64,000 nt of DNA. Source: a virus. Location: positions 64,001 to 128,000 of the IMG/VR virus record IMGVR_UViG_3300017963_000201. One strand, given 5' to 3'. The first letter of the stretch is position 1. Every line of letters begins with the position of its first letter. The translations under genes and the position numbers were made by a program. Below, piece after piece: positions 5,479 to 17,109 of this stretch. Under the pieces are notes generated by a model. The model did no database searches. It was not told the DNA's origin and saw only the letters and a list, made by a program, of their open reading frames with translations.

Positions 5479-6792
5479 ATGCCATACAACCCAAACGAGC
5501 TAAAAAACAAGATAATTGGTAAGGAAATAAACATTGGTATTGTGGGTTTAGGATATGTAGGTTTACCCTTAGCTATTCAGTTTTGTAAGAAGGGATTCAA
5601 TGTTATAGGATTTGACATTGATCCGTATAAAGTGTATTGCCTTAAGCACGGAACAAGTTACCTAAGCCACGTTGATCCAGAATCTTTTATTGAGTACATC
5701 CAAGCAAAAAAGTTTTTTCCTACTAGTTTCTTCAAAAATTTAACATTTTGCACTGTAACAATAGTATGTGTACCAACCCCCCTTACAGCAAATAGAGAAC
5801 CAGACTTAAGTTACATAAAAGCAACCATGGAAAGTATTCAGCCCTATGTTGGAAAATACGTAAACATCGTATCTCTAGAAAGCACGACGTATCCAGGAAC
5901 AACCAACGAGGTAGTAAGACCAATCTTAGAAAAAGAAGCTGCTGTTGGTAAGGATTTTGCTCTGATTTACTCTCCGGAACGTGAGGACCCAGGAAACCCT
6001 TTTTTTAGTATAGGTAATACTCCCAAAGTTGTAGGAGGCCAAACAGAAACATGCGGATTACTTGGTAAGGTACTGTATCAACAAATCGTAGACACTGTAA
6101 TATTAGTAAGTTCTACCAATACCGCAGAGATGGTCAAAATCTTAGAAAATACCTATCGAGCAGTCAATATATCTTTTGTAAATGAACTAAAGATGCTGTG
6201 CCATAAAATGGGCATAGATATTTTTGAAGTCATACGAGCAGCACAAACCAAACCTTTTGGCTTTCAAGCCTTTCGTCCTAGTTGCGGTTTTGGTGGGCAT
6301 TGCATAAAGGAAGATCCGTTTTATCTCACTTGGAAAGCACGGCAATATGACATTAACACAAAGTTTATAGAACTGGCTGGAGAAATAAATTCGTATATGC
6401 CAGAATATGTTTCCAATCGAATTCAAGATGCATTAAATTCTAGAGAAAAAAGTATTAAAAACTCGGTTATATTAATTATTGGGGTTGCGTATAAGCCAAA
6501 TGTCAACGACACCCGAGAAAGCCCTGCTTTTAGAATTATAGATCTGCTACATAAAAAAGGTGGGCATATACTATACCATGATCCTTTTATTCCTATTCTG
6601 CCAGAAACTAGGAAATACAATTTCAAACTTAAATCGCAAGATTTATCTAAGGATTTATTAAATATTGTGGACTGTGTTGTTATAGTAACGGCGCATAAAG
6701 ATATCGATTACAAATTTATCCAAAAATATGCCAAGATCATCGTTGATACCTGCGACACGTTTAGGGATAAAACAAACGTCTACTGCGCATAA
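5479..6792 (+). CDS. UDP-N-acetylhexosamine / nucleotide-sugar 6-dehydrogenase
   Basis: GLGYVG Rossmann motif, CVPTP, LESTTYPGTT, YSPEREDPGN, KILENTYRAVNI, GGHC, AYKPNVNDTRESPA; start placed at ATG after GAGG. Confidence 0.92.
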   Translation: MPYNPNELKNKIIGKEINIGIVGLGYVGLPLAIQFCKKGFNVIGFDIDPYKVYCLKHGTSYLSHVDPESFIEYIQAKKFFPTSFFKNLTFCTVTIVCVPTPLTANREPDLSYIKATMESIQPYVGKYVNIVSLESTTYPGTTNEVVRPILEKEAAVGKDFALIYSPEREDPGNPFFSIGNTPKVVGGQTETCGLLGKVLYQQIVDTVILVSSTNTAEMVKILENTYRAVNISFVNELKMLCHKMGIDIFEVIRAAQTKPFGFQAFRPSCGFGGHCIKEDPFYLTWKARQYDINTKFIELAGEINSYMPEYVSNRIQDALNSREKSIKNSVILIIGVAYKPNVNDTRESPAFRIIDLLHKKGGHILYHDPFIPILPETRKYNFKLKSQDLSKDLLNIVDCVVIVTAHKDIDYKFIQKYAKIIVDTCDTFRDKTNVYCA

Positions 6793-8385: not shown

Positions 8386-8866
8386 ATTCATAGAATACCC
8401 TAGCCACATTGATCTAATATCCATAGCGCTTGTATCTGAGTCCGGGGGGTTTTTTTACGCAGTCAATAATGAGTGTGACTTTAGTAAAGCAAATCCGTGG
8501 GTCAAGGAAAACATAATTGACCATCTAGAGCCCCAGTCAGATCCTTCCTGGATGACAAGGGAAAAAATAAAAAGTGATCTGTTAAACTACTTAAAACCTG
8601 AGATAGAAGATCCTGTTCAGCTCTGGGGATATTACGCAGATTACGATCATGTAGCTTTGTGTTGGCTATTTGGGCCTATGATTAATTTACCAAAAGGTAT
8701 GCCCATGTATACCTTGGACCTAAAGCAATTGGCTTATCACCTTGGTAATCCACCATTACCGACACAGGATCTCCCAGAGCACAACGCAAAGCACGATGCC
8801 CTATGGAATCGAAGAGTTTATTTTTACCTAAAGCAGATAGCCAAACAAAAAAATATTGAGGTTTGA
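8360..8866 (+). CDS. DEDDh 3'-5' exoribonuclease (Rv2179c / RNase AS-like)
   Basis: FYDTEFIE, LISIALV, WGYYADYDHV, EHNAKHDA. Confidence 0.88.
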   Translation: MRKFFYDTEFIEYPSHIDLISIALVSESGGFFYAVNNECDFSKANPWVKENIIDHLEPQSDPSWMTREKIKSDLLNYLKPEIEDPVQLWGYYADYDHVALCWLFGPMINLPKGMPMYTLDLKQLAYHLGNPPLPTQDLPEHNAKHDALWNRRVYFYLKQIAKQKNIEV

Positions 8867-9073
8867 TGTGCAAGAAGCATTGATGGTTATGTTAGTTGTA
8901 TTGGGTATAATCGGTTTGGTACTACTTAGTAGATCGATAATATATGGTAGACTGCTTTGCCAAGGAAAAATTAGTAGCTATAGTTACACAAAAGTAAAAA
9001 CAAGAGAAGCAACAAATTTTATCTATGGGATCATGTTTTTAATTGCATCCATATCCTTATTTATTGTCCTCCC

Positions 9074-11053: not shown

Positions 11054-11372
11054 AAAACCGATACCAACAATTGAAAAAGAATTCAATATAGAAGAGCATG
11101 TACCCCCAAGGGAAGAGATACCCAAAGAGTTTAAGACATTTATAGGCCAAAGAAACAAATGGGTAGTTGCCGCTGAGGATTGGTTCTATTTTGGGCTATC
11201 CAAGGACAGTCTTAAACCTAAAGATGGTATTGATCTAAATGCCGCACTTATACATCTACAACGATTACTCCACTCTTTTAGTCTAGAGCACAACCACAAA
11301 ATAGCTGCGGCATCTTACCTAATGTCTTTGTGGTTTCAGGAATATACCCCGAGCAAAAGAGATATACCCTAG
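11040..11372 (+). CDS. Conserved hypothetical phage protein
   Basis: 110 aa; WFYFGL...HNHKIAAASYLMSLWF. Confidence 0.55.
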   Translation: MVKFRKPIPTIEKEFNIEEHVPPREEIPKEFKTFIGQRNKWVVAAEDWFYFGLSKDSLKPKDGIDLNAALIHLQRLLHSFSLEHNHKIAAASYLMSLWFQEYTPSKRDIP

Positions 11373-11463
11373 TGCGGGGTACTGTGTCAAGCCAATTCTT
11401 AATGTTTAGGAAAGTGCCTAGAACCTAAATCTTTTTCCTTGAAAAAATTAATCTTTTTATTGC

Positions 11464-11491
11464 TTGACGTACCCAAAAACTTTTGTATTAT
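11464..11491 (+). promoter_or_regulatory. Sigma70-type promoter for the ncRNA cluster
   Basis: TTGACG-N16-TATTAT with AT-rich upstream sequence. Confidence 0.7.
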
Positions 11492-11519
11492 ACACTAAGC
11501 AGCACAAAGAATGATAAGG

Positions 11520-11532
11520 GATCTTTGACAAT
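11520..11532 (+). promoter_or_regulatory. boxA-like antitermination element
   Basis: GATCTTTGACAAT about 25 nt after the predicted start, resembling rrn boxA. Confidence 0.5.
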
Positions 11533-11543
11533 CGGTTGTGGTT

Positions 11544-11600
11544 TTCCCTCTGGGATCTTTAACTCTTTTCGCTTGGACGTTTTAGTCATGCCAGAGGGAA
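11544..11600 (+). ncRNA. Hairpin cassette H1 (10-bp stem, 37-nt loop)
   Basis: TTCCCTCTGG ... CCAGAGGGAA. Confidence 0.5.
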
Positions 11601-11657
11601 TTAATGTGCCCTTGTTCCGGTAACGCTAGGCACGGGACCCTAACAAGGGTAGCCTTT

Positions 11658-11794
11658 GGGCAAATGCTGTATGGCACTCCATAGCTTATATAAGTTCGAA
11701 TCTTATTATACCCTTCGGGGTATATAGCCTAACTGGTAAGGCAGCTTCTTATAAAGAAGCCAAGCGAAAATGTGCCACACAATACTTGTTGCCC
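11658..11794 (+). ncRNA. Y-RNA-like element Y1 with permuted tRNA (anticodon loop UUAUAAA)
   Basis: GGGCAA-ATGC-TGTATGGCAC / GTGCCACACA-ATACTTG-TTGCCC stem encloses T arm (ATAAG TTCGAAT CTTAT), acceptor stem closed by UUCG, D arm and anticodon arm. Confidence 0.8.
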
Positions 11795-11809
11795 TTTATT
11801 AGTCAGATT

Positions 11810-11883
11810 TCTTGCTGAATGCAGTTTATGATTACATTTTTGTGTAAAAAAATCAGATCACAAACTAATCCTTGTCAGCAAGA
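11810..11883 (+). ncRNA. Minimal Y-RNA-like element Y3 (no tRNA domain)
   Basis: TCTTGCTGA-ATGC-AGTTTATGAT ... ATCACAAACT-AATCCTTG-TCAGCAAGA; same internal loop as Y1, Y2, Y4. Confidence 0.72.
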
Positions 11884-11892
11884 TTAATCCTT

Positions 11893-12123
11893 GGGGATCT
11901 AAATGCGCGTCAGGATTACATTGCACTTAACTGTTAATTAAGAGGTTGTTGGTTCGAGTCCAACCTGGCCCATCTCCGCTAGTGGGGGTAGGAATCCATG
12001 TCATAGGTTTACAGTCCCTCCCGTATGCTTGTGGCTTCCGCTCTTTTCTTACCCTCACTTTTATGGGCCAGTAGCTCAATTGGTAGAGATAATATGGTCT
12101 TGGCAAATACTTGTTAGATTCCC
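11893..12123 (+). ncRNA. Y-RNA-like element Y2 with permuted tRNA (GUU anticodon) and nested hairpin
   Basis: GGGGATCTAA-ATGC ... AAATACTTG-TTAGATTCCC; anticodon arm 11926-11942, T arm 11948-11964, acceptor strands 11965-11971 and 12065-12071, D arm 12074-12088. Confidence 0.82.
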
Positions 12124-12135
12124 TTTTTATTATAA

Positions 12136-12210
12136 AATAACTGCATAAGAACGTACACTAACTTAATAAAAATTTTCGATGCACGCCTGCTCTACTCTTA
12201 TGCAGTTATT
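12136..12210 (+). ncRNA. Hairpin cassette H3 (15-bp stem, 45-nt loop)
   Basis: AATAACTGCATAAGA ... TCTTATGCAGTTATT perfect inverted repeat. Confidence 0.55.
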
Positions 12211-12217
12211 ATTTTTT

Positions 12218-12274
12218 GGGGCATTCAGTTTTGTTTAAATATTTGGGGCAATAAAAATATTTCCTGAGTGCCTC
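12218..12274 (+). ncRNA. Hairpin cassette H4
   Basis: GGGGCATTCAG ... CTGAGTGCCTC; the GU pairs favour the + strand. Confidence 0.45.
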
Positions 12275-12288
12275 TCTTAATTGTACTA

Positions 12289-12363
12289 AGAAATCGACGT
12301 TGACCATCCTTACCCCGCATCCCTACCTCAGCTTTCTAGACTTCCCTGGCAACGTCGATTTCT
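12289..12363 (+). ncRNA. Hairpin cassette H5 (14-bp stem, 47-nt C/U-rich loop)
   Basis: AGAAATCGACGTTG ... CAACGTCGATTTCT. Confidence 0.55.
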
Positions 12364-12530
12364 AATTTTGGAGCGTCCGAAGCGTGACTGGATCATTTAA
12401 CATCCAAAAAATCAGCACTAGTTTTTACTTTGGAGTCTAGTATGCCTTCTGTGGATAACGTCTTTAATTTGATTATGGCTTTATTTGCTTCCTGGATTAT
12501 AGTAGTATTTATAGCATCGCACTTTGGCAA

Positions 12531-12603
12531 GGGGCACTAGCCTAACGGATAAGGCATCGGCCTTCTAAGCCGACCAATCGGGGTTCGATTCCTCGGTGTC
12601 CCG
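12531..12603 (+). tRNA. tRNA-Arg(UCU)
   Basis: Full cloverleaf GGGGCAC/GTGTCCC, anticodon arm TCGGC CTTCTAA GCCGA, T loop TTCGATT; CCA not encoded. Confidence 0.93.
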
Positions 12604-12614
12604 TAGGAGATGCT

Positions 12615-12800
12615 ATGAATGATAAGGAAATCGTTGCGGAGCTAAGAAGAATTGGATCTGATGTTTTGAATAAACTTTGGAAAGCTCACCATGATTATCA
12701 TTTCAAAACCATAGATGCCCAAGAGTTTATCAAAATATTTAAACAAGCTGTAGCTAAGTTTAATGAAGCAAATACTATCATAGAAAGAGAAAGACATTAG
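12615..12800 (+). CDS. Small hypothetical protein within tRNA cluster
   Basis: AGGAG RBS, 61 aa, fills the gap between two tRNAs. Confidence 0.55.
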   Translation: MNDKEIVAELRRIGSDVLNKLWKAHHDYHFKTIDAQEFIKIFKQAVAKFNEANTIIERERH

Positions 12801-12883
12801 GCTGCTGTGACGGAATGGTATACGTATCAGACTTAAAATCTGATGCCCAGATGGGATTGAGGGTTCGAGTCCCCCCAGCAGCA
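12801..12883 (+). tRNA. tRNA-Leu(UAA)
   Basis: GCTGCTG/CAGCAGC acceptor, TCAGA CTTAAAA TCTGA, long variable arm, discriminator A. Confidence 0.92.
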
Positions 12884-12886
12884 TAC

Positions 12887-12970
12887 GGATCGGTGCCCGA
12901 GCTGGTCAAAGGGGACGGGCTGTAAACCCGTTGTCATGTGGCTACGATGGTTCGAATCCATCCCGATCCA
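12887..12970 (+). tRNA. tRNA-Tyr(GUA)
   Basis: GGATCGG/CCGATCC acceptor, ACGGG CTGTAAA CCCGT, long (bacterial-type) variable arm. Confidence 0.93.
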
Positions 12971-12980
12971 TATATAAGTC

Positions 12981-13118
12981 TTACTCCGAATGCAGTAAGA
13001 GATTACATTGCTCTTCGAAAGCCGTGGTTGCGGGTTCAAGTCCCGCTCCCCCGATTTCGGGGGATAGCTCAATTGGTAGAGCACGTAAAATAATCTCTTG
13101 CAACCCTTGTCGGAGTAA
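12981..13118 (+). ncRNA. Y-RNA-like element Y4 with permuted tRNA (UCG anticodon)
   Basis: TTACTCCGA-ATGC-A-GTAAGAGATTA ... TAATCTCTTGC-AACCCTTG-TCGGAGTAA encloses anticodon loop, T arm, acceptor stem closed by ATTT, and D arm. Confidence 0.85.
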
Positions 13119-13133
13119 ATTTTTGGAGGTTTT

Positions 13134-13718
13134 ATGAATACGCATATTGAGTACGAACGAAAGTTTTTGATTGGGAAGAGCGATTGGATGCACTATGTCT
13201 CTAAGACAGTTTACATAGTTCAAGGCTACCTGTCTTTTGATATCCCTAGTGTTCGTATTCGAAAACAATGCTCCGTAAATCAATGTGATAATTTATTTTG
13301 CAATCAATGCACCTTTGGGGATAAATTTACAATTCAACTATCGTACAATATAACAATTAAAGGTACTAAAAACAAAGAAGACCTAGCATGTAGGGATGAA
13401 TTTAACATACCTGTTAGCCCCACTATTGGAGATCATATTCTTCGCCAAGTAAAAAAAGATTTTATAGTTAAACAAAGACACTTTGTCAAATACGATGATA
13501 TCATTTGGACCATTGACGAGTTTAAGAGAGATAACCAAGATCTTATAGTAGCAGAGGTTGAGAATAGTAATAACTTACCAAAAGATGAATTTAATAAATC
13601 GGTAAATACTCATATGCCAACATGGGTACTAGAAGAAGTAACACAAGATCCAGATTATTTAAACGTAAATTTAGCTAGGCATCCCTATAACACATGGGAC
13701 TTAAACAAAAACAAATAA
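13134..13718 (+). CDS. CYTH-domain (triphosphate tunnel metalloenzyme) protein
   Basis: EYERKFL, QGYL, VRIR, WTIDEF, LIVAEVE, EVTQDPDYLNVNLA. Confidence 0.9.
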   Translation: MNTHIEYERKFLIGKSDWMHYVSKTVYIVQGYLSFDIPSVRIRKQCSVNQCDNLFCNQCTFGDKFTIQLSYNITIKGTKNKEDLACRDEFNIPVSPTIGDHILRQVKKDFIVKQRHFVKYDDIIWTIDEFKRDNQDLIVAEVENSNNLPKDEFNKSVNTHMPTWVLEEVTQDPDYLNVNLARHPYNTWDLNKNK

Positions 13719-13908
13719 CCGCAACCGATAAATTTATTAATGAGCTACAAAAATTAATAGGATCTAGAATTACTCAAATCGATCTTTGGTACAAAGATGG
13801 TATTATAAGAATGGAGTTCAGAGATAGAGAAGGCATCCAGGTAGACATTAAAAAAGGGCTAATAGAAATTTTTAAGGAAGATAAGTTAATACAAATAAAA
13901 ATATTTTA

Positions 13909-13971
13909 GGCAGCGGTAGTGTACTAATCTTTCCCAAAACAGTGTCAAATGTGTCCATGCCTATCGCTGCC
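13909..13971 (+). ncRNA. Hairpin cassette H6 immediately upstream of the Ro60 RBS
   Basis: GGCAGCGGTAG ... CTATCGCTGCC, 41-nt loop. Confidence 0.45.
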
Positions 13972-13999
13972 ATTGTCCTCACAGAAAGGGGAATGCATT

Positions 14000-15553
14000 A
14001 TGAATAAACAAGTCTTCAAAACGACTAGAGGGAAAATACCCGAAAGGGCTAATACCTACAATAAGGCAGGAGGTAAAGCTTATACGAGATCCCCAGAGGC
14101 ATCTTTAGTACAGATGGCTTTGACAGGAACTTTCTATAATACGTTCTATTGCTCCGGTAGAGCACAACTGAACGAAACGATAGATTTGTGCAAAAAGGTA
14201 GATCCTAGATTCGTAGCACAGACAGCTATCTACGCAAGAAGCAAAGGGCTCATGAAAGATATGCCTATGTTTCTTTGTGCTCATTTAGCAAAAGAAGATC
14301 CTAAACTTTTGGAGCTGATCTTTCCACAGGTAATGAGCAATGGGATAGTCCTCAAGAAGTTTGTACACATGCTTAGGTCTGGGGTTGTCGGGCGTAAAAG
14401 TATGGGGACCACGATCAAAAGAGCTGTTACTAATTGGATCCAGAATCGATCTTACCATGGGTTGTTCCGAGACGCTATCGGTGGGGATGTCACGATTGCA
14501 GACATAATAAAAATGGTTCACCCCAGACCTCAAGATAAATCAAGAGAAGCGTTCTATGCTTATTTGATCGGTAAGAAATATAATCATGAATCACTGCCTA
14601 CTATTGTAAAAGAATATGAGGCTTTCAAAAAAGGAGAAACCAAAGAAGTACCCAATGTAGAGTTTCGTTACTTAACTTCTCTGAAACTGGGTAAAACCGA
14701 ATGGACCCAAATTGCCTTGAACGCCCCTTGGCATATGTGTCGAATGAACTTGAATACCTTTGATCGCCATGGGGTATTCAAGGATAAAAAAGTGACAAAA
14801 AGAATTGCCGACAAAATCAGGGACCGCGAATCAATAAGAAAGGTTGGCGTATTCCCCTACCAACTTTTGGCAGCATACAAAGCAGAGAAGGATTTGCCAC
14901 GAGAGATCATTGAGTCTCTGCACGATGCAATGGAAATCGCAACCAAGAATGTGCCCACTGTTGAAGGGAAAGTTGTATTGTGCCCGGACGTATCAGGTTC
15001 TATGCAAAGCTATAGCGTTACAGGGTCAAAAAATTCTAGTATAAAGCCGTTAGACGTTGCCGCTTTAGTTACAGCCGTGGTATTGAGAAATAACCCAGAC
15101 GCTTTGGTTTTACCCTTCGATACAGGATTACACAATATAAGACTCGAACCTAGAGATACGGTTATGACTAATGCAAACAAACTAGGGAGAATTTATGGTG
15201 GAGGTACCTCAGTAAGTGTACCCATGCGGTATCTTATAGACAAAAGGATCAAAGCCGATGTCATTATCTACATAAGCGACAACGAGTCTTGGGCAGATCC
15301 TTATCACCGAAGTACTGCTTTAGAAGGGTACTGGCAACAATTCAAATCAAAGAATAGAAACGCTAAACTTATTTGTATCGACACTTATGTAGAGAAAAAC
15401 GTACAGGCTAAAGATGCTCCAGATGTATTAAACATTGGTGGTTTTTCAGACAACGTTTTTACGCTAATAAATCTTTTTCTTAATGGAAGCATTGGTACTG
15501 AGGGTATCGTAAGCGAAGTCAAAAAAATTAACATGGGAGAGCGTGATGCCTAA
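14000..15553 (+). CDS. rsr: Ro60 / TROVE-vWA RNA-binding protein
   Basis: NKAGGKAY, TGTFYNTFY, AIYARSKGLMKDMP, RMNLNTFDRHGVF, FPYQLL, vWA MIDAS DVSGSM, GGGT, SDNESW, IGGFSD; start at ATG 14000 after AAAGGGG. Confidence 0.93.
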   Translation: MNKQVFKTTRGKIPERANTYNKAGGKAYTRSPEASLVQMALTGTFYNTFYCSGRAQLNETIDLCKKVDPRFVAQTAIYARSKGLMKDMPMFLCAHLAKEDPKLLELIFPQVMSNGIVLKKFVHMLRSGVVGRKSMGTTIKRAVTNWIQNRSYHGLFRDAIGGDVTIADIIKMVHPRPQDKSREAFYAYLIGKKYNHESLPTIVKEYEAFKKGETKEVPNVEFRYLTSLKLGKTEWTQIALNAPWHMCRMNLNTFDRHGVFKDKKVTKRIADKIRDRESIRKVGVFPYQLLAAYKAEKDLPREIIESLHDAMEIATKNVPTVEGKVVLCPDVSGSMQSYSVTGSKNSSIKPLDVAALVTAVVLRNNPDALVLPFDTGLHNIRLEPRDTVMTNANKLGRIYGGGTSVSVPMRYLIDKRIKADVIIYISDNESWADPYHRSTALEGYWQQFKSKNRNAKLICIDTYVEKNVQAKDAPDVLNIGGFSDNVFTLINLFLNGSIGTEGIVSEVKKINMGERDA

Positions 15554-16304
15554 ACTTCATGAATTATTGGCAGTAGAGTCAGATCTAAAAAATCAATTTG
15601 ATAAGATCTTGCAAGAGACTATTGTTACATTCACCAAAAAGCAAGATCATTTTATGGGCGTGCATAAGACTCTAAAAATGATCGATGATAATCGGGCTCA
15701 TGAGGAAGAAGCAGCTACTCAGTACAAAGAGCTTGATGATACCGTAGACGGTAAATTGGACTATACTTGGAAGTATGTTTCCAAGTATATTAATGCGATT
15801 CATCAGAAGGAAAGTACAAACCAAACTGCTAAAGCAGACCTGGTTGTGGAAGGTAAGGTTTTAGCCAAAGACCTTCCTGCCACTTTACTTTTGAGCATGG
15901 AATCGAAGCTAAAGTTTCTTCGTGGGGTCTACGAAAAGATACCCACGCTACAACCCGGAGTAAAGTGGGTACCAGATCCACAAAGAGGTAAAGGTGTGTT
16001 TCAGGCAGAGCCTCCAGAGATGACCCATAAAACGGAGAAGGATCTGAAATCGAAAACTCTGTTTGAGGGTAATAAAGAACACCCACCACAAATTGAAAAG
16101 TGGATGGAATCTTTCGTTGTGGGTACCTACACAAAAGATATGTGGTCTGGTATGTATTCTCCAGCCAAGAAGTCTGAGGTTTTGGGTAGATTGGATACCC
16201 TGATTCAAAGCATCAAAAAAGCCCGTATGCGTGCAAACGATACAGAGGTTTTGAAGACCGAAGTTAATCTTGCGGGTGCGTTGTATAGCTATTTGACAAA
16301 GTGA
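15546..16304 (+). CDS. Conserved uncharacterised protein overlapping the Ro60 3' end
   Basis: MPKLHELLAVE..., NQTAKADLVVEG...LPATLLL.MESKL, EHPPQIEKW, SGMYSPAKK...IKKARMRAN; I recall a similar uncharacterised bacterial/phage family (unverified). Confidence 0.75.
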   Translation: MPKLHELLAVESDLKNQFDKILQETIVTFTKKQDHFMGVHKTLKMIDDNRAHEEEAATQYKELDDTVDGKLDYTWKYVSKYINAIHQKESTNQTAKADLVVEGKVLAKDLPATLLLSMESKLKFLRGVYEKIPTLQPGVKWVPDPQRGKGVFQAEPPEMTHKTEKDLKSKTLFEGNKEHPPQIEKWMESFVVGTYTKDMWSGMYSPAKKSEVLGRLDTLIQSIKKARMRANDTEVLKTEVNLAGALYSYLTK

Positions 16305-16625
16305 ACAAGCTTTGGGCCAGCATCATAATTAGTCTCTGTTGTTAATTTTGTCCTTGGTGTTTTGCCCACAGCTTTAAACCTAAAGACGGATCAATTACTG
16401 GGCATGAATAAAAACCGCGTGCAGTGCGGGTTCAAGTCCCGTTCCGACCACCATATGGTCGGATAGTTCAATGGTAGAACGCATGCTTGATCAGATTCTA
16501 AATCGTGTGCCAGGAAAGATTCGGTACAGGGGGCTCGCTGGATGCCCTGTATCCCAGCACTTGGGTGGGATTGCTGTTGTGAAAAATGGTGATTTTTTAT
16601 AGCGGGCAATCCCATCTCTTTTTAT
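16305..16625 (+). ncRNA. Structured RNA containing a permuted tRNA-like module (16417-16486)
   Basis: GCGTG-CAGT-GCGGG TTCAAGT CCCGT-TCCGACC-ACCA-TAT-GGTCGGA-TA-GTTC AATGGTA GAAC-G-CATGC; outer boundaries approximate. Confidence 0.7.
16563..16624 (+). terminator. Long-hairpin intrinsic terminator
   Basis: GGGTGGGATTGC ... GCAATCCCATCT followed by T6. Confidence 0.65.
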
Positions 16626-17109
16626 TATGAAAAGTATAAATTTTACTATAGATATACCATACCGCTTATACCAACATTTTAATCTTAATTTTTACTTAAT
16701 TATAGGAAAGAATGAATTCCAGGTATCCCCCTTAAATTATTTTTGTCTCAATAATCCCCCCATAGAAAGCATGCGAAAGCTTATAGTTGATACACTGGTA
16801 TCCTATGACAAAGACAAAAAATAATTCTTTAGATGCGGACATGGGAGATCTTAGATTAAAGATTATACCGAATCCTTATTTAGAAAGTAGAACTATAGTA
16901 GTTTCTTTGGACGTATTTCGAGATCTCGGGTTTGCTTACCAGGAATTTAGGGATGAAAGAAACGATACTGGAAGAAAAAAAGACTGAGTATAAAAGATCT
17001 ATGACAGGATGCGTACCGATAGATCACGGAAAAACATATATTAAATTATATAGATCTTTATTTTGGTACCAACAAAAACATGCTTTATATGATGCCCTAC
17101 TAGAGTTAT

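What the first reader, a model, noticed from the sequence alone, without database searches (positions are those of the whole stretch)
11464..16625. Phage Ro60 locus with an array of Y-like RNAs that carry whole, circularly permuted tRNAs
Seen: four RNAs (11658-11794, 11810-11883, 11893-12123, 12981-13118) have different terminal stem sequences but the same internal loop, 5'-AAUGC opposite AA(U/C)(A/C)CUUG-3'. Three share GAUUACAUU at the end of the upper stem. They lie upstream of CYTH and Ro60/TROVE on the same strand. Three enclose tRNA parts with the 3' half before the 5' half and the acceptor stem closed by a loop. Known: Ro60 binds Y-RNA stems with a CGAAxG / CUUG helix, and bacterial YrlA RNAs mimic tRNA with T, closed acceptor and D arms, the Ro stem taking the place of the anticodon arm. 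Unusual here: the anticodon arm is retained, and the Ro stem is inserted at three different points (end of D stem, inside the anticodon stem, variable loop). Joining the halves on paper gives complete cloverleaves. Inference: either Ro-chaperoned decoys that display different anticodon loops to host anticodon nucleases, or caged pre-tRNAs released by cleavage and ligation.
Basis: partly seen in the sequence, partly recalled or inferred. Interest (0 to 1): 0.93.

Follow-up and report, generated by a model that had tools for sequence, protein, structure and literature searches.

The report
Phage Ro60 locus with tRNA-mimic Y RNAs
A phage carries a Ro60 RNA-binding protein gene next to four or five small YrlA-type RNAs that imitate tRNAs; the "retained anticodon arm" is real, but it is the hairpin already published as the V stem-loop of YrlA RNAs, which across phages and bacteria turns out to look like an anticodon loop.

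Summary
Four RNAs at 11658-13118 have different terminal stems around the same AAUGC/…CUUG internal loop. Three enclose a T arm, a closed acceptor stem and a D arm in permuted order. All lie on the strand of a true Ro60 gene.

They belong to the known YrlA/YrlB Y-RNA family. Rfam YrlA hits reach E 7e-13 and 4e-7, both below the gathering score. The window's Ro60 is 43-46% identical to Ro60 of Rhizobium, Methylosinus and Novosphingobium rsr-rtcB loci, whose Y RNAs use the same scaffold.

The "retained anticodon arm" of RNA4 is not special to this phage. The same hairpin sits in mycobacteriophage and Rhizobium/Methylosinus/Novosphingobium Y RNAs. By position it is the "V" stem-loop described in 2014.

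What appears unreported in the papers I could read:
- In 18 such RNAs the hairpin has a 7-nt loop (U33 17/18, R37 17/18, A38 16/18).
- It sits on a covarying split stem (27-28:42-43 paired 36/36).
- Attachment topology varies. RNA1's variable-arm attachment is unique among 32 modules.
- NCCA follows the acceptor 3' strand in 7 of 27 phage-locus modules.
- tRNA-like modules are swapped inside an otherwise identical scaffold.

Function is untested. A role as tRNA mimics held on Ro60 is most likely; true pre-tRNAs are unlikely. The scan holds only first-reader notes on this same stretch.

The parts
11464..11491 (+). Best sigma-70-like promoter match of the region (TTGACG, 16 nt, TATTAT), upstream of RNA1-3
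   Evidence: 10 of 12 matches, the top site in 11300-16800. This is a consensus match only; expression was not tested.
11658..11794 (+). Y RNA 1. The Ro-type stem (GGGCAA/UUGCCC, AAUGC / AAUACUUG) continues into a 4-bp stem at the tRNA variable-arm position. That stem encloses a T arm, an acceptor closed by UUCG, a D arm, and a 5-bp hairpin after the D arm with loop UUAUAAA.
   Evidence: YrlA 40.7 bits; z -4.7; re-permuted: tRNA-Tyr(ata); the only one of 32 modules with a perfect hairpin after the D arm. The MFE fold zips that hairpin into 7 bp with a 3-nt loop. There is no YUAY motif.
11810..11883 (+). Y RNA 2. A short Ro-type hairpin without a tRNA-like module (YrlB-like): AAUGC / AAUCCUUG loop, with GAUUACAUU.
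   Evidence: (z -4.3). Similar short forms are common in related loci.
11893..12123 (+). Y RNA 3. Order: Ro-type stem, GAUUACAUU, a complete 5-bp anticodon-like arm (loop CUGUUAA), a 5-nt variable loop, T arm, acceptor 3' strand + A, a 93-nt insert (11972-12064) with a 14-bp stem, acceptor 5' strand, D arm.
   Evidence: tRNA model 35.1 bits on 11907-11972; z -3.6; re-permuted: tRNA-Asn(gtt); insert fold; the insert carries an antisense copy of the tRNA-Leu/Tyr junction.
12136..12219 (+). Perfect 15-bp inverted repeat with a 45-nt loop, followed by a T run. Possible end of the RNA1-3 transcription unit.
   Evidence: I2; sequence. The terminator scan did not call it because the loop is too large.
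12531..12603 (+). Canonical tRNA-Arg(UCU)
   Evidence: 60 bits.
12801..12883 (+). Canonical tRNA-Leu(UAA)
   Evidence: 58 bits.
12887..12970 (+). Canonical tRNA-Tyr(GUA). These three are the only tRNAs in the 145-kb phage record.
12981..13118 (+). Y RNA 4. A YrlA-type RNA: CCGAAUGC motif, GAUUAC(YUAY)AUU, hairpin GCU-CUUCGAA-AGC, CG(42-43) pairing with CG(27-28), 5-nt variable loop, T arm, acceptor closed by AUUU, D arm.
   Evidence: YrlA 60.7 bits, E 7e-13; the hairpin is a 16-nt insert relative to the model. Also (z -6.0; re-permuted: tRNA-Arg(tcg); covariation).
13134..13718 (+). CYTH-like protein (194 aa). Not conserved next to Ro60 in related loci.
   Evidence: no homologues beyond itself; Atlas CYTH, TM 0.76-0.82.
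13949..15553 (+). Ro60 / TROVE + vWA protein (534 aa), with the DxSGS MIDAS motif conserved.
15543..16304 (+). DUF7873 protein (253 aa), a family found mostly in phages, function unknown. Not conserved next to Ro60 elsewhere.
   Evidence: (3e-64).
16387..16620 (+). Structured RNA 5. It contains a permuted T arm, an acceptor whose closing loop begins ACCA, and a D arm (16426-16480). It has no AAUGC/CUUG scaffold, and ends in a long hairpin followed by a T run.
   Evidence: YrlA positions 30-81, 30.7 bits; z -4.4; kept, with ACCA, in two sister contigs at 97-99% identity.

Best explanation
This is a phage version of the Ro60/Y-RNA system.

What the parts are:
- RNA1, RNA3 and RNA4 are YrlA-class Y RNAs. 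RNA2 is a short YrlB-like Y RNA.
- The conserved helix with the 5'-(C/U)(G/A)AAUGC and 3'-CUUG internal loop is the presumed docking site for the phage Ro60.
- The distal module folds like a tRNA elbow and presents a tRNA look-alike to other proteins.

RNA4-type members are found widely in phage and bacterial Ro60 loci. The first two pairs of the anticodon stem (27:43, 28:42) are formed in trans by the two ends of the module. At that point the helix branches into the Ro60-binding stem and a 3-bp hairpin. The hairpin's 7-nt loop has the hallmarks of an anticodon loop. The RNA is therefore a whole-tRNA mimic, with the Ro60 handle leaving from the middle of the anticodon stem.

This phage also has two variants. 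In RNA3 the anticodon-like arm is completed in cis, and the acceptor stem is closed by a 93-nt insert. In RNA1 the handle leaves from the variable-arm position.

Likely role (inferred, not shown): the RNAs tether Ro60 to host proteins that recognise tRNA. Alternatively they compete with real tRNAs for such proteins, for example anticodon nucleases, modification enzymes, RNase P or CCA-adding enzyme. This would act during infection alongside the phage's own tRNAs.

Shown here: sequence, fold, family relationship and covariation. Inferred: Ro60 binding, expression and the effector.
For: Family and scaffold:
- A full-length Ro60 lies on the same strand.
- Rfam YrlA hits on RNA4 and RNA1 score about the same as the hairpin-bearing Y RNA of the R. 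etli rsr-rtcB locus, 57.5 bits.
- The same CGAAUGC…YUAC…CU(U/C)G scaffold occurs in R. etli, Methylosinus and Novosphingobium Y RNAs. Their Ro60 is 43-46% identical to the window's.
- The four window RNAs keep the loop while changing every stem pair.

Permuted modules:
- 19 modules on the Ro60 strand and 0 on the other strand in 497 kb.
- T, acceptor and D stems covary (13 of 16 predicted pairs have compensatory changes).
- The 15:48 Levitt pair is G:C in 10 and A:U in 6 of 18 RNAs.

Split stem and hairpin, in 18 RNAs:
- 27-28:42-43 paired in 36 of 36 cells, with 4 and 3 pair types. Partner shuffles average 18.3, and 0 of 2000 reach 36.
- Hairpin stem paired 51 of 54.
- Loop: U33 17/18, R37 17/18, A38 16/18.
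- An unbiased hairpin search gives a 7-nt loop in 12 of 22 best hairpins. Of those 12, U33 is present in 11 and R37 and A38 in all 12.

Other support:
- Arrays of 3-10 Y-like RNAs interleaved with tRNA genes are common in related phage Ro60 loci.
- Published YrlA RNAs bind Rsr and carry tRNA modifications (Chen 2014, PMC4201824). A crystal structure shows a tRNA L-shape (Wang 2018, bioRxiv 10.1101/312249).
Against: - No expression or binding data exist for this phage.
- Rfam scores are below the gathering cut-off, and RNA3 gets no YrlA hit.
- RNA1's topology has no homologue, so it rests on one sequence. Its 'anticodon loop' can zip into a 7-bp stem with a triloop.
- The hairpin is dispensable in some homologues: it is deleted in L015 relative to L011 and L030.
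- The triplet differs between close homologues, and some triplets (ACU, AUC) are not natural anticodons. This fits poorly with mimicry of specific host tRNAs.
- The 18-RNA set was hand-picked for having the hairpin, and the register was optimised per sequence. The pairing counts are therefore somewhat flattering.
- Which helix stacks on the 27-28 pairs cannot be told from sequence.
Confidence: 0.72

Rival explanations
1. Acceptor-opened, two-piece tRNA-like RNAs. RNase P and 3' trimming or CCA addition would open the acceptor 'loop', as reported for M. smegmatis YrlA. The result would be a nicked RNA with a free NCCA end, still held together by the Ro stem and bound to Ro60, which might even be aminoacylated. 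This would apply best to RNA3 (93-nt insert) and RNA5 (ACCA), and not to RNA1 (UUCG cap).
For: - NCCA follows the acceptor 3' strand directly in 7 of 27 modules, against about 0.4 expected. Most cases are in phages whose own tRNA genes encode CCA. RNA5 has ACCA, which is kept in sister contigs.
- Long inserts in the acceptor loop occur in RNA3 (93 nt) and L030 (97 nt). Both begin A(CCA)UCUCCG and end CUUUUAU.
- Acceptor stems are 7 bp.
- Precedent: M. smegmatis YrlA is cut by RNase P and receives CCA (Chen 2014, PMC4201824, section 10).
Against: - RNA1 and RNA4 have 4-nt closing loops (UUCG, AUUU) and no CCA.
- S. Typhimurium YrlA is not cleaved at this site (PMC4201824).
- NCCA could simply be a relic of descent from CCA-encoding tRNA genes.
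- The phage encodes no CCA-adding enzyme.
Confidence: 0.2
2. Caged, circularly permuted pre-tRNAs. The Ro stem would be cut out and the ends ligated, and the acceptor then opened. This would yield functional tRNA-Asn(GUU), tRNA-Arg(UCG) and a Tyr-like tRNA to add to the phage's three tRNAs.
For: - The rejoined halves are called as tRNAs by ARAGORN.
- Tertiary-pair nucleotides are intact.
- In bacteria the Y RNAs sit next to the RtcB ligase.
- The idea was raised by Wang 2018 (bioRxiv 10.1101/312249).
Against: - The 145-kb phage record has no RtcB and no clear RNA ligase. Only 1 related phage locus (L006) among those searched has RtcB within the fetched flanks.
- No bacterial splicing endonuclease is known (stated in Wang 2018).
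- The scaffold and hairpin are those of YrlA RNAs, which are reported to be bound by Rsr (Chen 2014).
- Triplets such as AUA (RNA1) and ACU, AUC (homologues) are not natural anticodons, and the hairpin is absent in some homologues.
- RNA3 has discriminator A, where, from general knowledge of AsnRS identity (not checked here), G73 is expected.
- RNA1's acceptor is capped by a stable UUCG tetraloop.
Confidence: 0.06
3. Non-functional debris of rearranged tRNA gene arrays. Tandem tRNA genes would recombine into permuted chimeras that happen to lie near Ro60, and the anticodon-like hairpin would be a decaying leftover of the upstream tRNA.
For: - The published 'dimeric tRNA origin' model for YrlA (cited in bioRxiv 10.1101/312249).
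- RNA1's D arm matches the phage tRNA-Arg D arm at 17 of 19 positions, and RNA3's insert holds scrambled pieces of the tRNA-Leu/Tyr region.
- Neighbouring tRNAs in L004 already have complementary acceptor strands.
Against: - Stems covary while loop positions 33, 37 and 38 and the Ro loop stay fixed, across RNAs from phages and three bacterial genera.
- The strand bias is strict, 19 against 0.
- All four RNAs fold far better than shuffles.
- The scaffold is kept 5' and 3' of swapped modules in L044 and L051.
Confidence: 0.04

Closest known systems
YrlA Y RNAs (Rfam RF02553; Chen et al. 2014, PMC4201824; structure in Wang et al. 2018, bioRxiv 10.1101/312249)
   Same: - Encoded beside Ro60 on the same strand.
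- Same CGAAUGC-type 5' motif and YUAY motif.
- T arm, closed acceptor and D arm in that order, with the Levitt pair.
- Optional stem-loop ('V') between YUAY and the T arm.
- Already reported in 22 phages.
   Different: - Scores fall below the Rfam cut-off, because the model is built on the hairpin-less form.
- Here the V hairpin is read as an anticodon stem-loop mimic on a split stem. The structure paper states that YrlA lacks an anticodon loop.
- RNA1 is attached through the variable-arm position.
- RNA3 has a 5-bp cis anticodon-like arm and a 93-nt acceptor insert.
[quoted passage not shown]
   Same: RNA2 has the Ro60-binding type helix only, with no tRNA-like module, and is encoded in tandem with a YrlA-type RNA.
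   Different: No sequence homology was shown. According to Chen 2014, YrlB orthologues were found only in Salmonella serovars.
Thermus phage phiLo Ro60 with Yrl1/Yrl2 (NAR 2025, PMC12135203)
   Same: A phage Ro60 (phmmer E 3e-23 to the window protein) with two Y-like RNAs encoded upstream on the same strand. Binding was shown in vitro, and a complex with host PNPase was proposed.
   Different: The phiLo Yrls are described as stem-bulge-stem RNAs with a CGAA motif, and the text reports no tRNA-like module. The window has 4-5 RNAs, three or four of them with tRNA modules.
Circularly permuted tRNA genes of Cyanidioschyzon merolae and an archaeon (Soma 2007, Chan 2011, as cited in bioRxiv 10.1101/312249)
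   Same: The 3' half is encoded before the 5' half, the acceptor is initially closed, and the termini are paired.
   Different: Those are matured by a splicing endonuclease and a ligase through a circular intermediate. No such enzymes are known in bacteria or found in this phage. Here the terminal helix is a conserved Ro60-type scaffold, not a bulge-helix-bulge motif.
M. smegmatis YrlA (RNase P-cleaved and CCA-added; Chen 2014)
   Same: A 7-bp acceptor stem, and a possibility that the acceptor loop is opened. This is relevant to RNA3, RNA5 and the NCCA-bearing modules.
   Different: Processing was not tested here. RNA1 and RNA4 have tetraloop caps.

Membership tests
YrlA (RF02553) | Encoded within a few kb of a Ro60 orthologue, on the same strand | tested here: met
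   RNA1-4 lie 0.8-2.3 kb upstream of Ro60 (13949-15553), all on the + strand.
YrlA (RF02553) | 5' Ro60-recognition motif GNCGAAN0-1G (Rfam consensus CgaAUGC) | tested here: met
   RNA4 has CCGAAUGC. RNA1 has GCAAAUGC, RNA2 CUGAAUGC and RNA3 CUAAAUGC, each 1-2 changes from the motif. R. etli Y RNAs carry the same motif.
YrlA (RF02553) | Conserved YUAY after the 5' strand of the stem | tested here: met
   GAUUAC is present in RNA2, RNA3 and RNA4. It is not evident in RNA1.
YrlA (RF02553) | T arm, closed acceptor stem, UA, D arm in this order, with tRNA tertiary nucleotides | tested here: met
   (Levitt 15:48 G:C or A:U in 16 of 18). Met by RNA1, RNA3, RNA4 and the module of RNA5; RNA2 lacks it.
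YrlA (RF02553) | Score at or above the Rfam gathering threshold (69 bits) | tested here: not met
   RNA4 scores 60.7 bits, RNA1 40.7, RNA5 30.7, and RNA3 gets no hit. Hairpin-bearing Y RNAs of bacterial rsr-rtcB loci score similarly (49.9 and 57.5). The hairpin-less R. etli copy scores 98.4.
YrlA (RF02553) | Bound by Ro60 in vivo | not testable with these tools
   Needs RIP or EMSA.
Functional tRNA (RF00005) | Contiguous cloverleaf with free acceptor ends | tested here: not met
   ARAGORN calls only Arg, Leu and Tyr in the window. RNA1, 3 and 4 pass only after in-silico re-permutation.
Permuted pre-tRNA (C. merolae type) | 3' half before 5' half, with paired termini | tested here: met
Permuted pre-tRNA (C. 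merolae type) | Machinery for excision and ligation (splicing endonuclease, RtcB-type ligase) available | tested here: not met
   The 145-kb phage record has no RtcB, only a 16-bit RNA_ligase-domain hit in a 643-aa ORF, and no CCA-adding enzyme. The record is about 79% complete, and host enzymes are unknown.
Ro60 / TROVE protein | TROVE ring plus C-terminal vWA domain with MIDAS | tested here: met
   vWA_Ro60 4e-23. TROVE scores 21.3 bits, just under its cut-off. Full-length phmmer matches to Rsr 2NVO and phiLo Ro60 9KOP. D347-x-S349-G-S351 is invariant.
CYTH (triphosphate tunnel) for 13134-13718 | CYTH fold or profile match | tested here: inconclusive
   No Pfam hit. PDB phmmer gives only E about 0.7, to NeuTTM 2FBL/3TYP. 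Atlas feature score 0.95 and TM 0.76-0.82 to CYTH clusters.

The most novel reading that the evidence does not exclude
The 'V' stem-loop of YrlA RNAs may be a true anticodon stem-loop mimic. YrlA RNAs would then be complete tRNA mimics, with the Ro60 handle branching out of the anticodon stem. Phages would carry panels of such mimics with fast-changing triplets, swappable tRNA modules and several attachment topologies. The panels would occupy or be cut by host anticodon-loop-directed enzymes (anticodon nucleases, or the tRNA-damage signalling of RtcR/RtcB), with Ro60 holding or disposing of the products. Some members would be opened at the acceptor to expose an encoded CCA end.
Probability: 0.25. 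Interest if true: 0.8.

Novelty: new variant of a known kind. Interest (0 to 1): 0.55.

Why it matters
[quoted passage not shown] In the papers I could read, that domain is described as lacking an anticodon loop.

Many YrlA-type RNAs, in phages and in bacterial rsr-rtcB operons alike, in fact display a hairpin with the geometry and signature of an anticodon loop on a covarying split stem. This narrows the search to proteins that read anticodon loops. It also ties the Y RNAs more directly to the published finding that the rsr-yrlBA-rtcBA operon is switched on by tRNAs cut in the anticodon loop.

This phage offers a compact test set of three attachment topologies plus a module-less control, all next to one Ro60.

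For annotation, it shows that the Rfam model under-scores the hairpin-bearing form. It also shows that phage tRNA islands hide many unannotated Y RNAs.

Tried and rejected
- Close relatives for orthologue covariation. blastn of the locus against 50,697 phage records found only tRNA matches. Ro60-based scans of IMG/VR, GTDB genomes and JGI metagenomes gave relatives at 50% identity or less. The exceptions were two sister contigs covering only Ro60-DUF7873-RNA5. RNA1-3 therefore have no orthologues to compare.
- Conserved protein partners. tblastn with the CYTH-like protein, DUF7873 and nine other neighbours found none of them in any related Ro60 locus. Only Ro60 + Y RNAs + tRNAs travel together.
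- RNAalifold on 16 hairpin-bearing modules recovered the T, acceptor and D stems but missed the hairpin and the 27-28:42-43 pairs. MAFFT mis-registers the region when the variable loop is 4 rather than 5 nt. I counted those pairs from structure-based parsing instead.
- A loose motif scan for Y scaffolds has a real background: 26-61 hits on the wrong strand. I used it only as a guide, not for statistics.
- Do the hairpin triplets match natural anticodons or the phage's own tRNAs? By my count 14-16 of 18 are natural, against about 12.6 expected by chance. That is not informative, and I saw no pattern with co-resident tRNAs.
- Rfam Y_RNA (RF00019) gave no hit.
- The homologue search for the CYTH-like protein returned only itself, so I attempted no alignment-based fold.
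- The supplements of Chen 2014, the 2018 and 2020 Wolin-lab reviews, and Burroughs & Aravind 2016 are not held. I could not check whether the anticodon-like nature of V is already noted there.

Full report
WHAT IS THERE

The window is part of a 144,959-bp IMG/VR virus record with 39.8% G+C. Between 11.46 and 16.62 kb, all on the + strand, lie:
- the best promoter-like site of the region, at 11464-11491;
- RNA1 (11658-11794), RNA2 (11810-11883) and RNA3 (11893-12123);
- a 15-bp hairpin followed by a T run (12136-12219);
- tRNA-Arg(UCU), tRNA-Leu(UAA) and tRNA-Tyr(GUA), the only tRNAs of the whole record;
- RNA4 (12981-13118);
- a CYTH-like ORF, a Ro60 gene and a DUF7873 gene;
- a fifth structured RNA with a permuted tRNA module (16387-16620).

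The Ro60 call is solid. Pfam vWA_Ro60 scores 4e-23. There are full-length phmmer matches to D. radiodurans Rsr (2e-25) and to the Thermus phage phiLo Ro60 (3e-23). The MIDAS motif is conserved.

The CYTH call rests on ESM Atlas similarity (feature score 0.95, TM 0.76-0.82) and on weak PDB sequence hits to NeuTTM.

The four RNAs have unrelated, fully complementary terminal stems of 6-10 bp. All share the internal loop 5'-AAUGC opposite AA(U/C)(A/C)CUUG. Three carry GAUUACAUU. All fold much better than shuffled controls, with z from -3.6 to -6.0.

RNA1, RNA3 and RNA4 contain a T arm, a closed 7-bp acceptor stem, UA and a D arm, in that order. A purpose-written scanner for this arrangement found 19 modules on the Ro60 strand and none on the opposite strand in 497 kb. 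Rejoining the halves in silico gives sequences that ARAGORN calls tRNA-Tyr(ata), tRNA-Asn(gtt) and tRNA-Arg(tcg).

WHAT FAMILY IT IS

Rfam's YrlA model matches RNA4 (60.7 bits, E 7e-13) and RNA1 (40.7 bits, E 4e-7). Both are below the gathering score of 69. For RNA4 the shortfall comes from a 16-nt insert relative to the model, which is exactly the disputed hairpin.

The window's Ro60 is 43-46% identical to the Ro60 of plasmid-borne rtcR / Ro60 / Y RNA / RtcB loci of Rhizobium etli, Methylosinus and Novosphingobium. The Y RNAs there use the same scaffold: CGAAUGC, 7-8 nt, (A/G)NYUAC-A…, then CU(U/C)G followed by the stem.

In R. etli the hairpin-less copy scores 98.4 bits. The hairpin-bearing copy scores 57.5 bits, about the same as RNA4.

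GAUUAC contains the published YUAY motif. The AAUGC loop overlaps the published GNCGAAN0-1G motif (Chen et al. 2014, PMC4201824). RNA2, which has no module, corresponds in design to the short YrlB.

I therefore file the RNAs as YrlA/YrlB-class Y RNAs of a phage Ro60. Chen et al. already reported YrlA-related RNAs in 22 phages. A 2025 study showed in vitro binding of two upstream Y-like RNAs by a Thermus phage Ro60 (PMC12135203).

THE 'RETAINED ANTICODON ARM'

In RNA4 the segment after GAUUAC-AUU is GCU-CUUCGAA-AGC, then CG, a 5-nt linker and the T stem. After the D stem come A and CG.

I tested this on relatives fetched through Ro60: 31 IMG/VR loci, 11 metagenome loci, two GTDB contigs, three isolated phages and three plasmids. 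Results for 18 hairpin-bearing RNAs, 15 from phages and 3 from bacteria:
- 27-28:42-43 pairs form in 36 of 36 cells, with pair types CG, GC, AU, GU and GC, UA, CG. Partner-shuffled sets average 18.3, and none of 2000 reaches 36.
- The hairpin stem pairs in 51 of 54 cells, with 4 pair types at each position.
- The loop has U at position 33 in 17 of 18, a purine at 37 in 17 of 18, and A at 38 in 16 of 18.

A hairpin search that put no condition on the loop gave a 7-nt loop in 12 of 22 best hairpins. Eleven of those 12 have U33, and all 12 have R37 and A38.

The structural reading is therefore well supported, with one caveat. The set was chosen for having a hairpin, and I optimised the register per sequence.

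WHY THIS IS NOT NEW TO THIS PHAGE

The same hairpin-plus-2-bp design is present in several known systems:
- Mycobacterium phage Dandelion: CUC-AUUGCAA-GAG with CU:AG. Dandelion is classed as a Bixzunavirus; from my own knowledge ET08, the phage aligned in Chen 2014, belongs to the same group.
- R. etli: AGG-CUGUUAC-CCU with GG:CC.
- Methylosinus and Novosphingobium.

[quoted passage not shown] By position this is the same element, which they interpreted as a variable arm. Topologically it is not at the variable-arm position, because two stem pairs and a normal 4-5-nt variable loop separate it from the T stem.

The structure paper states that (Salmonella) YrlA 'lacks the anticodon loop'. So the anticodon-loop character of V seems not to have been stated in the papers I could read. 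The two Wolin-lab reviews and Burroughs & Aravind 2016 were not available to me.

WHAT IS UNUSUAL IN THIS LOCUS AND ITS RELATIVES

(a) RNA3 has a full 5-bp anticodon-like arm made in cis (loop CUGUUAA) followed by a normal 5-nt variable loop. The Ro stem therefore leaves between the D stem and that arm. Its acceptor stem is closed by a 93-nt insert with a 14-bp stem. A related phage RNA in L030 has a 97-nt insert. Both inserts begin A(CCA)UCUCCG and end CUUUUAU.

(b) RNA1 has its hairpin after the D arm, and a 4-bp stem at the variable-arm position leads to the Ro stem. It is the only one of 32 modules built this way. There is no YUAY, the acceptor is capped by UUCG, and the loop can zip up. 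This topology rests on a single sequence.

(c) In L001 one Y scaffold encloses an unpermuted tRNA-like module through its acceptor stem (8770-8899).

(d) NCCA directly follows the acceptor 3' strand in 7 of 27 modules, where about 0.4 is expected. Most cases are in phages whose tRNA genes encode CCA. RNA5 of the window has ACCA, and this is kept in two sister contigs.

(e) L044 and L051 share nearly identical Ro scaffolds on both sides but carry entirely different hairpins, T arms, acceptors and D arms.

(f) Close homologues differ in the triplet (UAG in L011, UAU in L030) or have lost the hairpin (L015).

(g) Arrays of 3-10 Y-like RNAs interleaved with tRNA genes are common in these phages. 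R. etli itself has five Y RNAs in a row.

HOW IT MOST LIKELY WORKS

Shown: family membership by scaffold and module, the fold, and covariation.

Inferred from the family:
- Ro60 docks on the AAUGC/CUUG helix.
- The distal module folds into a tRNA L-shape (Wang 2018).
- It recruits or competes for tRNA-recognising proteins.

The anticodon-like loop points to enzymes that read that loop. Hughes et al. 2020 (PMC7790460) showed that the Salmonella operon is induced by tRNAs cut in the anticodon loop. They suggested that YrlA might competitively inhibit the nuclease. The phage arrays, which sit inside tRNA islands, fit a role in conflicts over tRNA integrity, but nothing here tests that.

The pre-tRNA idea is unlikely, for these reasons:
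- no RtcB, no clear RNA ligase and no CCA-adding enzyme in the record;
- RtcB within the fetched flanks in only one related phage locus, L006;
- triplets that are not natural anticodons (ACU, AUC, AUA);
- tetraloop-capped acceptors in RNA1 and RNA4;
- the same design in bacterial Y RNAs, which are reported to be bound by Rsr (Chen 2014).

Opening of the acceptor loop in some members (RNA3, RNA5 and the NCCA-bearing modules) remains a live possibility. [quoted passage not shown]

VERDICT

The headline novelty (anticodon arm retained, whole permuted tRNAs) is largely the known V stem-loop under another name, and both proposed functions are already in print as speculation.

The added value is threefold. 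There is covariation-backed evidence that V is an anticodon stem-loop mimic on a split stem, in phages and bacteria alike. This phage and its relatives show a variety of attachment topologies. And there are the NCCA and module-swap observations. I score it as a new variant of a known kind, with moderate interest.

Noticed in passing
window 12006-12034 versus 12875-12928: The 93-nt insert of RNA3 contains an antisense, internally deleted copy of the tRNA-Leu 3' end / tRNA-Tyr 5' half. A 22-nt arm is 82% complementary, including 9 perfect nt against the Tyr anticodon loop, and a 14-nt arm is 86% complementary. A sense T-arm-like piece lies at 11987-11999. This could be a rearrangement scar or a functional antisense; my rough chance estimate for the 22-nt arm is about 0.06.
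   Followed up: partly
window 16387-16620; L041, L049: RNA5, downstream of DUF7873, has a permuted T / acceptor / D module whose closing loop starts ACCA. It lacks the AAUGC/CUUG scaffold. It is kept, with a few substitutions, in two sister metagenome contigs at 97-99% identity.
   Followed up: partly
L044:6173-6300 and L051:1207-1330: The two loci have almost identical Y-RNA scaffolds and flanks but completely different tRNA-like modules: hairpin UCC-AUACUAA-GGA versus CAC-CUAUCAA-GUG, with different T, acceptor and D arms. The module looks like an exchangeable cassette.
   Followed up: partly
L001:7777-10130 (IMGVR_UViG_3300029288_000067): About ten Y-like RNAs are interleaved with eight tRNA genes downstream of Ro60. 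They use a variant loop, 5'-AACUAC / 3'-UUUG. One has a Leu-like class II D arm plus an extra variable-arm hairpin. One (8770-8899) encloses an unpermuted tRNA-like module that ARAGORN calls with a 4-nt anticodon.
   Followed up: partly
27 permuted modules in 23 loci: NCCA follows the acceptor 3' strand in 7 of 27 modules, against about 0.4 expected. Most cases are in phages whose tRNA genes encode CCA (L011, L029, L030, L044).
   Followed up: yes
window 12136-12210 and 12289-12363: Two perfect inverted repeats of 14-15 bp, with loops of 45-47 nt, each followed by a T-rich run, lie between RNA3 and tRNA-Arg. They could be large-loop terminators or a separate hairpin family.
   Followed up: no
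window 11725-11743 versus 12538-12556: RNA1's D arm (UAGCCUAACUGGUAAGGCA) matches the D arm of the phage's own tRNA-Arg(UCU) at 17 of 19 positions. The same D-arm type recurs in L001 and L018 modules, which suggests a second, Arg-like lineage of modules.
   Followed up: no
window 11566-11576 versus 11760-11770: An 11-nt stretch of the 5' leader is perfectly complementary to the CCAAGCGAAAA junction of RNA1. About 0.4 such matches are expected by chance in the region.
   Followed up: no
L005:5001-6604: The Ro60 match in this MAG contig, translated as one frame under table 11, has 17 stops. It could be frameshifted, recoded, or split across frames. A Y-like RNA with a T arm but no D arm follows at 6633-6731.
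   Followed up: no
L006:9099-10175: This was the only related phage locus with an RtcB homologue (34% identity to Methylosinus RtcB) near Ro60 and a run of seven Y-like RNAs.
   Followed up: no
L037 (Myxococcus phage Mx1), L038, L039: GenBank records of isolated Ro60-encoding phages annotate no Y RNAs. Mx1, the closest isolate (Ro60 43% identity), gave no YrlA hit at E <= 0.001 and no module with my scanner within 8 kb.
   Followed up: partly
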